Shown piece by piece: positions 33,401-40,771 of a stretch of DNA of 64,000 nucleotides (positions are counted from its first letter, which is position 1; each line of letters begins with the position of its first letter). The stretch comes from Longimicrobiales bacterium (GTDB lineage Bacteria; Gemmatimonadota; Gemmatimonadetes; Longimicrobiales; Gaopeijiaceae): positions 2,234,088 through 2,298,087 of the forward strand of contig OZ242973.1 of the NCBI GenBank assembly GCA_965211795.1, written 5' to 3'. The notes below the pieces were generated by a model. That model saw only the letters and a list, made by a program, of their open reading frames with translations. It searched no databases and had not been told where the DNA came from. Made by a program: the position numbers and the translations under genes.

Positions 33401-33470
33401 TGTTCTTACTGTGATAATAGTGAGATATACTGTGTGTTGATAGTGATTTATCATTACAGAACGCGATTTC
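33401..33470 (+). promoter_or_regulatory. ~70-bp upstream element A (shared with 40704..40771), containing TACTGTG-N14-TACTGTG
   Basis: Its reverse complement GAAATCGCGTTCTGTAATGATAAATCACTATCAACACACAGTATATCTCACTATTATCACAGTAAGAACA aligns with 40704-40771. Ends 81 nt upstream of the ATG at 33551. Confidence 0.6.
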
Positions 33471-33550
33471 GCCCTTCTTCTGCCCGCCGAGAACCCAATA
33501 GTCTCAAGGGGACGGATTGCAGGCGGCACTGACGGATTGGAGTTGGAGCC

Positions 33551-36500
33551 ATGACGAAGCGTGACAGGGTGAACGCACCAGGAGCCATGCCACGGGTCCC
33601 AGCAGCCTCCCAGCGAGTGCCCCGGCCGCGCATCCCCCTCGCCATGGCGTTTGCAATGTGGCTCGCCAGCTGCGGCGGTGACCCGACGCCTCCCGTCCCA
33701 GCGAACCGGGCACCCTTGGCGCTTGGCACGATGCCCGCCCAGCAAATCAGCGTCGGCGACACCGCGACGGTGGATGCGTCGGAGTACTTCACCGACCCTG
33801 ACGGCGACGCGCTGCAATACACCGCAGCGAGTTCCGACGATGAGGTGGCCACCTCCTCCGTGTCGGGAAGCATGATCGCAATCGCGGCCTTGGCCAAGGG
33901 CACCGCCGCCCTCACCGTAACGGCCACCGACCCGGAAGGCCTTTCGGCCCAGCAGAGCTTCGAGGCCACGGTGCCCAATCGGGTACCCTTGGCGGTTGGC
34001 ACGATGCCCGCCCAGCAAATCAGCGTCGGCGACACCGCGACGGTGGATGCGTCGGAGTACTTCACCGACCCTGACGGCGACGCGCTGCAATACACCGCAG
34101 CGAGTTCCGACGATGAGGTGGCCACCTCCTCCGTGTCGGGAAGCATGATCGCAATCGCGGCCTTGGCCAAGGGCACCGCCGCTCTCACCGTAACGGCCAC
34201 CGACCCGGAAGGCCTTTCGGCCCAGCAGAGCTTCGAGGCCACGGTGCCCAATCGGGTACCCTTGGCGGTTGGCACGATGCCCGCCCAGGAAATCAGCGTC
34301 GGCGACACCGCGACAATGGATGCGTCGGAGTACTTCGCCGACCCTGACGGCGACGCGCTGCAATACACCGCAGCGAGTTCCGACGATGAGGTGGCCACCT
34401 CCTCCATGTCGGGAAGCATCATCGCAATCGCGGCCTTGGCCAAGGGCACCGCCGCCCTCACCGTAACGGCCACCGACCCGGAAGGCCTTTCGGCCCAGCA
34501 GAGCTTCGAGGCCACGGTGCCCAATCGGGCACCCTTGGCGGTTGGCACGATGCCCGCCCAGCAAATCAGCGTCGGCGACACCGCGACAATGGATGCGTCG
34601 GAGTACTTCACCGACCCTGACGGCGACACGCTGAGCTACCGAGCTTCAAGTTCCGACACTTCGATGGTTATTGTCTCCGCCTCGGGGAGTGCGATCGCAA
34701 TCACGACTGTGACCAAAGGCACCGCCGCAGTCACCGCAACGGCCACCGATCCGGAAGGCCTTTCGGTCCAGCAGAACTTCGAGGTCACCGTGCCCAACCA
34801 AGCCCCGGTCGCGGTAGGCAGCATTCCCGCGTTGGAACTCACGACCGGGCGCTCGGTTGAGTTGAATGTCGCATCGTACTTCAGTGATCCCGACGGTGAT
34901 GCGTTGACGTACTCGGCGTCGGTTTCCGACTCCGCCGTCGCGAGCGCCTCGATGGCTGGCTCGGTCGTCACGATCCGCGGCTTGCGGGAGGGAAGCGTCG
35001 CCGTCATCGTCACGGCCACCGACGGGGACAACATGAGCGCCATGCAGGAAGCTCCGCTCACCGTGTCCCTGGTCGACAGAATCGTCATCAATCCTGCCCG
35101 GCCGCGAGTTTTCAGCCCGGGCGAGGAGGTGCCGCTCGCGGCGGTTGTGTTCGACATAAACGGGGCGACCATTCAGGAGGCGACCGTTGAATGGTCGTCC
35201 AGCGTTCCGGCGGTGGCGACGGTGTCGCCGGAGGGAGTGGTCGCCACCGTGGCCCAGGGGACCGCGTCGGTAGCCGCTGTATCGGGGCCGGCGTCGGCAA
35301 CCGTGCGGATCGCAGTGGGTCCCGCATCGATCCGGCGGGAATTCGAAGCGCTTCGCACAATCTACGACCAGATGGGCGGACCGGCCTGGAGAGAATCGAC
35401 GAATTGGTTGACGAATCACGCGCTGGACACCTGGTCACGAGTCGAGATCAATCGCGCCGGGTTCGTGACCGGACTCCGTCTGGCGAAGAACGACCTATCC
35501 GGCACGCTTCCTTCCGAGATCGGGGCGTTCGCGAGGCTCAAGCACCTGGACATGGACCTCAACCGACAAGTCGCCGGCCCGATCCCTCCCGAGATCGGTG
35601 ACCTGGAATCCCTCGAGTTTCTGAAGCTCAGTTCCACCGGCCTCAGCGGTCCGATTCCCGGCGAGATCGGCAACTTGGCACGGCTTAGGGATCTGCTGCT
35701 CCATTGGACGAAGCTGACCCGCATTCCGCCCGAAATCGGCAATCTCACCAACCTGACGCACTTCCACGCCTTCCTGAGCGAGTTCGAGGGTCCGTTGCCC
35801 GCGACGATTGGCAATCTCGACAACCTCAAGGAACTCTGGCTCAACGGAAACAGGTTGTCCGGCGCCATTCCGCCGAAAATCGGCGAGATGACGGCGCTCG
35901 AGAAGCTGCATCTGCATGACAACTTGTTCAGTGGTTCGATCCCCCCCAGCCTCGGCACCGCTCCGAATCTTTCGGTCCTGCGGCTGTCCGGGAACCGGCT
36001 GGCAGGACAGGTGCCGCCCGAACTCGGCGGGGCCCGGAATCTGCAGTGGCTGGCGCTGGAAGGGAACGAGCTTTCAGGCCCGATCCCCCCCGAGATCGCT
36101 GATTTGACGAGACTCGAGACGCTCGAGCTGCAGGAAAACGGCTTCAGCGGTCCGATCCCGCCGGAGTTCGGTGGCGCCACTGCCCTCACCTCGCTAAACC
36201 TCTCCCAGAACCGGCTCAGCGGAACGATTCCGGCGGAGTTGGGGAAGCTGACCATGGTGGAGCGTGTCTTGCTCGCCGACAACCCGGACCTTACCGGCAC
36301 TCTGCCTGCCGAACTCACCGGGATGCAGAACCTCCAGGTGCTGTTTCTGGGCGGGACGGATGTGTGCGCACCGACCGACCGGGAGTTTCTGACGTGGCTT
36401 CACAGCCTCTTGCAGGTACACGTCCGGCGGTGTGTGGACACCGATGCCAGCGTCGCCTACCTGACCCAGGCCGTGCAGTCGCCGCACTACCCCGTCCCCC

Positions 36501-40635: not shown

Positions 40636-40703
40636 GGCTCCACTCCCTGTCTGCCGGGTCGCGCCGCCCCCGCAGCGGCCGTCCGCAGGACCGTTACAAG
40701 GGT

Positions 40704-40771
40704 GAAATCGTCCCGTGGCAATAAATCACTACCGTCACACAGTAAGTTGAATTATTCTCACAGTCAACACA
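40704..40771 (-). promoter_or_regulatory. ~70-bp upstream element B (shared with 33401..33470)
   Basis: GAAATCGTCCCGTGGCAATAAATCACTACCGTCACACAGTAAGTTGAATTATTCTCACAGTCAACACA. Starts 69 nt upstream of the start codon at 40635. CACAGTA (40738) and CACAGTC (40759) are spaced 21 bp apart. Confidence 0.6.

What the first reader, a model, noticed from the sequence alone, without database searches (positions are those of the whole stretch)
33401..40771. The LRR-protease gene and the fused kinase-regulator gene share a ~70-bp upstream element with 21-bp-spaced direct repeats
Seen: the reverse complement of 33401-33470 (GAAATCGCGTTCTGTAATGATAAATCACTATCAACACACAGTATATCTCACTATTATCACAGTAAGAACA) aligns with 40704-40771 (GAAATCGTCCCGTGGCAATAAATCACTACCGTCACACAGTAAGTTGAATTATTCTCACAGTCAACACA). 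The shared blocks are GAAATCG, TAAATCACTA, CACACAGTA, ATTAT and CACAGT.

The two genes are convergent, so each element sits in the same orientation relative to its gene and at a similar distance from the start codon (81 and 69 nt). Read toward the gene, both contain (T/G)ACTGTG-N14-TACTGTG, a direct repeat with 21-bp (two-turn) spacing.

Established knowledge: OmpR-family winged-helix regulators bind direct repeats in phase with the helix.

Inference: the fused kinase-regulator (38281-40635) autoregulates itself and controls the neighbouring LRR-protease through this site, forming a compact sense-and-deploy circuit.
Basis: partly seen in the sequence, partly recalled or inferred. Interest (0 to 1): 0.65.

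Follow-up and report, generated by a model that had tools for sequence, protein, structure and literature searches.

The report
Duplicated kinase-regulator promoter drives LRR protease
A sponge-associated Gemmatimonadota bacterium placed a copy of the control region of its fused sensor-kinase/regulator gene in front of a neighbouring surface protease gene, so both genes probably answer to that one regulator; this is an ordinary kind of circuit, but a clear example of promoter capture.

Summary
The two upstream regions are homologous over about 137 nt (33340-33476 vs 40828-40698; alignment score 67 vs 21.7±2.5 for shuffles), with weaker similarity continuing to the ribosome-binding site.

The conserved core is not the 21-bp heptamer repeat. 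It is four phased GTG(A/T) boxes at offsets 0/11/32/43, forming two pho-box-like pairs. All 16 box positions are invariant in the four known copies, which are otherwise only 65-76% identical.

The same architecture recurs, on the sense strand only, about 115-190 nt upstream of homologous GAF-PAS-HK-REC-wHTH genes in independent metagenome loci. It is almost absent elsewhere in 900 kb of those loci. The regulator's DNA-binding half is closest to MtrA/PhoB, which bind direct repeats of this kind.

The element is single-copy in the source metagenomes, has no supported RNA structure, and no recombinase gene lies in the window.

The closest orthologues of this LRR-M66 protease lack both the element and a kinase neighbour. 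The protease therefore captured a copy of the kinase gene's promoter, 5'UTR, ribosome-binding site and possibly its first codons.

Autoregulation plus co-regulation is the best reading, but binding is untested. Verdict: a real, functional-looking element and a new variant of a known kind.

The parts
33340..33399 (+). U' flank: the distal part of the duplicated control region upstream of the LRR-M66 gene. It is homologous to 40773-40828.
   Evidence: Local alignment; four-copy alignment.
33400..33446 (+). Four-box operator, LRR-M66 copy. Boxes: GTGT 33400-33403, GTGA 33411-33414, GTGT 33432-33435, GTGA 33443-33446 (offsets 0/11/32/43).
   Evidence: Scores 14/16 in the box scan and is one of only two such sites in 64 kb. 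All 16 box positions are invariant in the four copies.
33464..33470 (+). Invariant CGATTTC heptamer, its ATTTC(N) hexamer 17 nt downstream of the box-D hexamer. Orthologues have a TAT(C/T)CT -10-like hexamer at this place. Putative -10 region; predicted start of transcription about 33477.
   Evidence: The transcription start is an inference.
33471..33550 (+). 5'UTR-like stretch ending in the ribosome-binding site GGAGTTGGAGCC (33539-33550). It is weakly homologous to the kinase gene's leader.
   Evidence: 57% identity to the kinase copy.
33551..37948 (+). Gene for a surface lipoprotein of 1465 aa: lipobox LASC, five Big/PKD-type repeats (four near-identical 273-nt repeats), LRR domain, and M66-like metalloprotease domain (HELGH at residue 1219). 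Its N-terminus is extended relative to orthologues, and its first codons resemble those of the kinase.
38281..40635 (-). Gene for a soluble one-polypeptide two-component system of 784 aa: GAF-PAS-HisKA(H322)-HATPase-REC(D611)-wHTH (Trans_reg_C). No transmembrane-like segment was found.
40636..40703 (-). 5'UTR-like leader of the kinase-regulator gene, with ribosome-binding site GGGAGTGGAGCC (40636-40647).
40704..40710 (-). Invariant CGATTTC heptamer (GAAATCG on the + strand). Putative -10 region; predicted start of transcription about 40697 on the - strand.
   Evidence: The transcription start is an inference.
40726..40772 (-). Four-box operator, kinase-regulator copy. Boxes, read on the - strand: GTGT 40772-40769, GTGA 40761-40758, GTGT 40740-40737, GTGA 40729-40726.
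   Evidence: Scores 14/16. The same architecture lies at the same distance (-137/-138) in the orthologue L001, and at -115 to -190 in other loci.
40773..40828 (-). U flank: the distal part of the control region. In related loci it faces a divergently transcribed surface-protein gene.

Best explanation
The shared element is the native upstream control region of the fused kinase-regulator gene. It has four phased GTG(A/T) boxes, arranged as two pho-box-like pairs with 11 bp within a pair and 32 bp between pairs, so all boxes lie on one face of the helix. The proximal box overlaps a -35-like position. An invariant CGATTTC (-10 region), a leader of about 65-80 nt and a GGAG-rich ribosome-binding site follow.

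A copy of this whole module, probably including the first few codons of the kinase gene, was fused in front of the LRR-M66 lipoprotein gene. This happened in this lineage only.

Most likely mechanism (inferred):
1. The cytoplasmic GAF-PAS sensor controls autophosphorylation at H322.
2. The phosphoryl group passes to D611 within the same polypeptide or dimer.
3. The MtrA/PhoB-like winged-helix domains bind head-to-tail to the two box pairs.
4. Binding recruits RNA polymerase at both promoters. The regulator thereby amplifies its own synthesis and switches on the secreted LRR metalloprotease.

Shown: the homology, the box architecture and its conservation, its specificity for this gene family, and the domain content.
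Inferred: who binds, the sign of regulation, and the transcription start sites.
For: Homology. The homology is highly significant and extends to the ribosome-binding site.

Selection on the boxes. The four copies of the window type (two in the window, two in L001) are only 65-76% identical in the element. All 16 box positions are invariant, against 15 of 52 non-box positions.

Independent loci. In 69 kinase-gene upstream regions that exclude the window and L001, GTGA is the top self-repeating 4-mer at spacings of 11 (10 times) and 32 (7 times). GC-rich 4-mers dominate at the other spacings tested. GTGA pairs at those spacings occur on the sense strand only.

Four-box model. It scores 12/16 or more in 26 of 71 upstream regions, against 1.5% of shuffles and 0 of 71 antisense controls. 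One independent locus, L042, scores 16/16.

Specificity. In 900 kb of loci, 10 of 13 hits at 14 or more lie 124-190 nt upstream of a kinase-gene start. Only the two copies score 14 in the window.

Promoter position. In L002, L003, L004 and L012 the proximal box reads GTGAC(T/A/G), followed after 17-18 nt by TAT(C/T)CT or TATCTA. This places the box at the -35 position, as in PhoB-type promoters.

Likely binder. The REC-wHTH half is closest to MtrA (PDB 2gwr, 6e-42; the NCBIfam MtrA model ranks first, PhoB next). MtrA boxes are two direct repeats of GTCACAgcg, the reverse complement of cgcTGTGAC (PMC4285127). H322, D611 and K660 are invariant across 22 family members.

Association with surface proteins. 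Surface-protein genes (LRR, M66, Big) flank this kinase family in at least 12 loci. In some they are divergent across the element: L010, L011 and the second copy in L001.
Against: - There is no binding, expression or transcription-start data. No RNA runs were found.
- The closest orthologues of the protease have no such element and no kinase neighbour, so the pairing is young and could be fortuitous.
- Other second copies look like rearrangement relics. The second copy in L001 carries a truncated kinase 5' end. L012:682 faces the 3' end of a gene.
- The window-type -10 candidate (CGATTTC) is a poor sigma-70 hexamer, and the promoter scan found no consensus promoter.
- The box definition was partly derived from the same four copies that were used for the invariance count.
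- Only 64 kb of a genome of about 4.3 Mb could be scanned for further copies.
Confidence: 0.55

Rival explanations
1. The copy is a relic of rearrangement. The copy in front of the protease gene is only a by-product of the frequent rearrangements around the 5' ends of these kinase genes. It may supply a promoter, but it does not place the protease under the regulator's control.
For: Orphan or truncated second copies exist elsewhere: the second copy in L001 with about 100 nt of kinase 5' coding sequence, and L012:682-728. Both window copies are flanked by decayed gene remnants. Orthologues of the protease lack the element.
Against: At about 70% overall identity, all 16 box positions, the CGATTTC heptamer, the spacing to the start codon and the ribosome-binding site are still kept in the protease copy. 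Neutral decay should have hit some of them.
Confidence: 0.17
2. The boxes are read by something other than the encoded regulator. This could be another transcription factor, or the boxes could be parts of two tandem promoters (TTGACT-N17-TACTGT and GTGATT-N15/17-ATTTC).
For: In the window copies the inner boxes overlap hexamers that resemble -35 and -10 elements (read directly). Nothing ties the protein to the DNA experimentally.
Against: The first hexamer pair is not conserved in orthologues that keep the boxes. The 11-bp and 32-bp direct-repeat phasing is typical of OmpR/PhoB-family sites, not of promoters. The element travels with the kinase-regulator gene through very different genomic contexts, and no other regulator gene is conserved beside it.
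Confidence: 0.15
3. The two copies are inverted recombination sites. A site-specific recombinase would flip the 7.3-kb two-gene segment.
For: The copies are inverted repeats that bracket both genes. Related loci carry a tyrosine-recombinase cassette flanked by perfect 32-nt inverted repeats right beside the kinase gene, found in both orientations.
Against: - No homologue of the recombinases from the related loci was found in the 64-kb window (tblastn).
- The recombinase sites in related loci are a different, palindromic sequence that lies upstream of the boxes.
- The longest identical run between the two copies is 11 nt.
- Contigs from five metagenome runs (four of them for each copy) span each copy in the window's arrangement, and no inversion joints were seen.
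- An inversion across these sites would leave both genes behind equivalent promoters, and so would change nothing.
Confidence: 0.05
4. The shared sequence is a transcribed RNA leader, such as a riboswitch or attenuator, common to both mRNAs.
For: The similarity continues through the putative 5'UTR to the ribosome-binding site.
Against: There was no Rfam match at E<=1 in 32.5-41.5 kb other than the tRNA gene and weak, sub-threshold hits overlapping it. The RNAalifold consensus is weak, with a covariation term of -0.44 kcal/mol. The best-conserved positions are short phased boxes, not paired stems.
Confidence: 0.03

Closest known systems
PhoB pho box and MtrA box operators (OmpR/PhoB family)
   Same: Direct repeats at about 11-bp periodicity, bound head-to-tail by winged-helix dimers. 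The proximal repeat sits at the -35 position. Autoregulation of the regulator's own gene is common. The half-site core TGTGA(C) is close to CTGTCA (PhoB; from my own knowledge) and to the reverse complement of GTCACAgcg (MtrA; PMC4285127).
   Different: Two pairs lie 32 bp apart rather than being contiguous. The organism belongs to the Gemmatimonadota. The regulator is covalently fused to its kinase. Binding is not demonstrated.
Bacteroides hybrid two-component systems (HTCS; PMC11253607)
   Same: Sensor kinase, receiver and DNA-binding output lie in a single polypeptide. The genes they control lie beside the regulator gene. Both occur in the FCB-group lineage.
   Different: HTCS proteins are membrane proteins with periplasmic sugar sensors and an AraC-type output domain, and they control polysaccharide utilisation loci. 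This protein is soluble, senses through GAF-PAS, has an OmpR-type winged-helix output, and neighbours LRR, Big or M66 surface proteins.
MtrA-MtrB of actinobacteria
   Same: It is the best sequence match for the REC-wHTH half: PDB 2gwr at 6e-42, and the NCBIfam MtrA model at 173 bits.
   Different: The score is below the family cut-off of 300 bits, so this is not an orthologue. The kinase is fused, and its GAF-PAS sensor part is unlike membrane-bound MtrB.
StcE-type M66 metalloproteases
   Same: There is an HExxH zinc motif, and the Pfam Peptidase_M66 match is above its cut-off (26.7 vs 20.6 bits). The protein is a secreted or surface lipoprotein with Ig-like domains.
   Different: Only part of the M66 profile is matched (positions 193-255 of 306). 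A large LRR domain and tandem Big/PKD-type repeats are added.

Membership tests
OmpR/PhoB-family response regulator (C-terminal half of the 784-aa protein) | Receiver domain with the phospho-acceptor Asp and the conserved Lys | tested here: met
   Pfam Response_reg, 5.9e-25. D567/D568, D611 and K660 are invariant in 22 homologues. LLDLML and KPF are visible.
OmpR/PhoB-family response regulator (C-terminal half of the 784-aa protein) | Winged-helix Trans_reg_C output domain | tested here: met
   Pfam Trans_reg_C, 8.1e-22. Full-length alignment to MtrA, RegX3, BaeR and KdpE structures.
OmpR/PhoB-type operator | Two or more direct repeats with 10-11 bp periodicity | tested here: met
   Boxes lie at offsets 0/11/32/43 in both window copies. 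Spacing peaks at 11 and 32 in independent loci, on the sense strand only.
OmpR/PhoB-type operator | Proximal repeat overlaps or replaces the -35 element of the regulated promoter | tested here: inconclusive
   GTGAC(T/A)-N17-TAT(C/T)CT occurs in L002, L003 and L004 (N18 and TATCTA in L012). The window type has an invariant CGATTTC there instead. No transcription-start data are available.
OmpR/PhoB-type operator | Specific binding by the cognate regulator | not testable with these tools
   Needs EMSA or footprinting.
Hybrid two-component system (HTCS, Bacteroides type) | Kinase, receiver and DNA-binding domain in one polypeptide | tested here: met
Hybrid two-component system (HTCS, Bacteroides type) | AraC-type HTH output and a membrane-anchored periplasmic sensor | tested here: not met
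   The output domain is Trans_reg_C. The sensor is GAF+PAS. No hydrophobic segment was found.
Invertible DNA segment (inverton/shufflon) | Inverted repeats plus a nearby site-specific recombinase, with both orientations detectable | tested here: not met
   Inverted repeats are present. No homologue of the related-locus recombinases lies in the window, and only one arrangement appears in contigs from five runs. Contigs can miss rare variants.
Dispersed repeat (MITE/REP) | Many copies per genome | tested here: not met
   Two copies lie in 64 kb. Depth is single-copy at 80% likeness or more in the source metagenomes. The strict pattern is absent from related genomes in genome contigs.
Known RNA family (Rfam) | Match to a covariance model, or covariation-supported structure | tested here: not met
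Peptidase M66 | HExxH zinc site within an M66-like domain | tested here: met
   HELGH at residue 1219. PF10462 scores 26.7 bits against a cut-off of 20.6, as a partial match.

The most novel reading that the evidence does not exclude
The 5' control module of this kinase-regulator family (boxes, promoter, leader, ribosome-binding site and start codon) may act as a portable plug-in. In sponge-associated Gemmatimonadota it would be moved by the recombination machinery that accompanies these genes: conjugative-element borders and invertible tyrosine-recombinase cassettes. Moving it would repeatedly rewire variable eukaryote-like surface proteins (LRR, ankyrin-type, Big, M66) to one conserved cytoplasmic GAF-PAS sensor. 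The window would then show one completed capture event.
Probability: 0.15. Interest if true: 0.7.

Novelty: new variant of a known kind. Interest (0 to 1): 0.45.

Why it matters
This is an uncultured, sponge-associated lineage (Palauibacterales-like Gemmatimonadota) in which gene regulation is essentially unstudied. The finding gives it a concrete, testable operator model: four phased TGTGA-type boxes.

It also links a very abundant family of soluble one-polypeptide two-component systems to host-interaction-type surface proteins. And it documents a clean case of regulon growth by capture of a promoter together with its start codon.

If binding is confirmed, the box model could be used to predict the regulons of hundreds of paralogues directly from metagenomes.

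Tried and rejected
- Exact look-up of the protease protein, to find the source contig: nothing on record.
- Rfam scan and RNAalifold: no RNA family and no supported structure.
- Consensus sigma-70 scan: no promoter called.
- Scan of genome contigs with a strict 20-base pattern of the element: four hits, all in unrelated taxa (Bacteroidota, Ktedonobacteraceae, Ruminococcus), so chance. The scan gave no information about further copies in the source genome.
- Search for RNA-seq runs: none could be identified as RNA, so no transcription starts could be mapped.
- Search for inversion joints in the metagenome contigs: none found.
- tblastn with the recombinases and integrases of related loci against the window: no hit.
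- Search for a second copy of the tRNA-Ser 3' end, which would mark an island boundary: none in the window.
- CRP-like palindrome reading of TGTGA: rejected on inspection of the sequence, because no inverted half-site is present.
- Idea that the protease/kinase pairing is ancestral: rejected after fetching the protease's closest orthologues.
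Full report
**1. What is in the sequence**

The window is high-GC (about 67%). 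The two elements are AT-rich patches just upstream of two convergent genes.

- Gene 33551-37948(+) encodes a 1465-aa lipoprotein. It has the lipobox LASC, tandem Big/PKD-type repeats, an LRR domain, and a C-terminal M66-like metalloprotease domain with HELGH.
- Gene 38281-40635(-) encodes a soluble 784-aa protein: GAF-PAS-HisKA-HATPase-REC-Trans_reg_C. The catalytic His and the phospho-acceptor Asp are intact.
- A tRNA-Ser gene (41054-41137, - strand) and purH/purN lie to the right. To the left lie a decayed choice-of-anchor-B pseudogene, an NHL propeller gene, an AAA_21 gene, a PIN-domain gene, a 461-aa gene with no Pfam match, and five giant ankyrin-repeat genes.
- Names given to homologues place the organism in the Gemmatimonadota, near Candidatus Palauibacter. 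That order is common in sponges and marine sediments (PMC10469786).

**2.

- The quoted alignment is correct. The pair is the longest inverted repeat in the region.
- The best local alignment spans 33340-33476 vs 40828-40698. It scores 67, against 21.7±2.5 for shuffles.
- Weaker similarity continues through the leader to near-identical ribosome-binding sites directly before the start codons.
- The 23-nt core occurs only at these two places in 64 kb.

**3. Comparative evidence**

The kinase-regulator belongs to a very large family, at 55-90% identity and with several paralogues per genome. I fetched five loci by exact protein look-up (L001-L005) and 80 more from metagenomes (L010-L089).

The closest orthologue (L001, 90% identity) has the same element at the same distance from its start codon. 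It also has a second copy (L001:15721-16023). That copy carries the leader and about 100 nt of kinase 5' coding sequence, and it points away from a different LRR-M66 gene.

Across these four copies the element is 65-76% identical. Four GTG(A/T) tetramers at offsets 0, 11, 32 and 43 are completely invariant: 16 of 16 positions, against 15 of 52 other positions. One caveat applies: the boxes were partly defined on these same sequences.

Independent loci give confirmation.
- In 69 other upstream regions, GTGA is the top self-repeating 4-mer at spacings of 11 and 32 only.
- GTGA pairs at those spacings occur on the sense strand and never on the antisense strand.
- The four-box model scores 12/16 or more in 26 of 71 upstream regions, against 1.5% of shuffles. 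One locus, L042, scores a perfect 16/16 with the central spacing one base shorter.
- In 900 kb of locus DNA, 10 of 13 strong hits lie 124-190 nt upstream of a kinase-gene start.
- In the window, only the two reported copies reach that score.

In several orthologues the proximal box reads GTGAC(T/A), followed 17 nt later by TAT(C/T)CT. That is a sigma-70-like promoter whose -35 element is the box. The window-type copies have an invariant CGATTTC at that place instead.

**4.

The (T/G)ACTGTG...TACTGTG repeat at 21 bp consists of the two inner boxes. The heptamers themselves are not conserved in L001, where they read TCTGTGA and ATCGTGT. The real unit is a pair of boxes 11 bp apart, present twice and three helical turns apart.

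**5. Who binds (inference)**

- The REC-wHTH half is most similar to MtrA (PDB 2gwr, 6e-42), followed by RegX3, BaeR, RpaA and KdpE. Among NCBIfam models, MtrA ranks first and PhoB is the next response-regulator model, both below their cut-offs.
- MtrA boxes are two direct repeats of GTCACAgcg (PMC4285127). Its reverse complement, cgcTGTGAC, resembles the boxes found here.
- From my own knowledge, PhoB boxes are CTGTCAT repeats with an 11-bp period that replace the -35 element.
- The element follows the kinase-regulator gene through many different genomic contexts, and no other regulator gene is conserved beside it.

Self-binding, and hence autoregulation, is therefore the most economical reading.

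**6. The link to the protease**

- The closest orthologues of this LRR-M66 protein (72-86% identity; L090-L093) have neither a kinase neighbour nor a four-box element. The window's arrangement is therefore a lineage-specific capture.
- The protease copy keeps every box, the CGATTTC heptamer, the distance to the start codon, and the ribosome-binding site.
- The protein has an N-terminal extension of about 19 residues compared with its closest orthologue. Its first codons (MTKRDR) resemble the kinase N-terminus (MNDRD). This suggests that the duplicated fragment included the kinase start codon, as the truncated second copy in L001 does. The resemblance is suggestive only.
- More generally, LRR, M66 or Big-domain surface-protein genes flank this kinase family in at least 12 loci. 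They lie either divergent across the element (L010, L011, the second copy in L001) or convergent downstream (L001, L013, L015, L039, L059).

**7. Alternatives**

- Dispersed repeat: rejected. Depth is single-copy at 80% likeness or more, while the kinase coding region is covered roughly 40- to 100-fold more deeply.
- RNA element: no support.
- Inversion sites: unlikely. The window holds no recombinase homologue and no alternative junctions were seen. The recombinase sites in related loci are a different palindrome.
- Neutral relic: possible, because orphan copies exist. It is disfavoured by the complete retention of the functional-looking positions.

**8. Verdict**

This is a real, specific cis-regulatory module of a fused kinase-regulator gene, duplicated in front of a surface protease gene. 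It needs a corrected site architecture, and it carries the caveat that the pairing is recent and the binding is untested.

In kind it is ordinary: two-component autoregulation and regulon growth. The variant is unusual: a soluble one-polypeptide HK-REC-wHTH in Gemmatimonadota, with promoter capture.

Noticed in passing
L004:8707-9841; L002:8709-9844; L003:8717-9836; also L013 and L077: A cassette of about 1.1 kb lies between a giant surface-protein gene and the kinase-regulator gene. It carries a tyrosine-recombinase gene of 319-328 aa (XerC/D-like) and is flanked by inverted repeats of about 30 nt (100% identical in L004). Each repeat is itself a palindrome around a 6-bp core (CTCGATAA-CTACAA-TTATCGAG). 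The cassette is inverted in L003 relative to L002 and L004. It looks like a self-contained invertible switch.
   Followed up: partly
L001:15721-16023: A second copy of the control region, with about 100 nt of truncated kinase 5' coding sequence, sits divergent from a different LRR-M66 gene (31% identical to the window's). A tRNA-like fragment that ARAGORN does not call lies nearby (about 16520-16575).
   Followed up: partly
window 9745-28594 (- strand): Five giant ankyrin-repeat genes (1016-1136 aa each) lie here: four in tandem (9745-22597) and a fifth (25184-28594) beyond a 461-aa gene with no Pfam match and a PIN-domain gene. Together with the LRR protein they form an island of eukaryote-like proteins between ispG/peptidase S9 and tRNA-Ser/purH.
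   Followed up: partly
window 33704-35022: Four to five tandem 273-nt repeats (81-100% identical) encode Big/PKD-type domains in the protease gene. Metagenome depth is raised over them, so the copy number may vary or the assembly may have collapsed them.
   Followed up: no
window 38346-40575: Depth over parts of the kinase-regulator coding region in the source metagenomes is roughly 40- to 100-fold that of its flanks (at 90% likeness or more). The family is therefore extremely multi-copy in that community.
   Followed up: no
L002, L003, L004, L005: Kinase-regulator genes often sit at the edge of conjugative-element modules (VirB8, TrbL, TrbI, TraG, VirB11-like, ArdC, MobC, integrases). This suggests that the family travels with integrative conjugative elements.
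   Followed up: no
window 32696-33374 (- strand): A frameshifted, internally deleted remnant of a choice-of-anchor-B family gene (TIGR04312 fragments in two frames) lies divergent from the protease gene. Metagenome depth is raised over it.
   Followed up: yes
window 40779-41021: An 80-codon ORF with no family match lies between the kinase gene's control region and tRNA-Ser. It occupies the position held by divergent surface-protein genes in related loci, so it may be a remnant of one.
   Followed up: partly
L012:682-728; L057:2848-2894: Two further strong four-box matches (14/16 and 15/16) do not lie in front of a kinase gene. The L012 match faces the 3' end of a convergent gene. The L057 match lies 120 nt after the kinase gene's stop codon. 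They may be orphan copies or chance matches.
   Followed up: partly
window 33551-33628: The protease ORF starts about 19 codons earlier than in its closest orthologue (P0128). A second in-frame ATG at 33587 could be the real start.
   Followed up: partly
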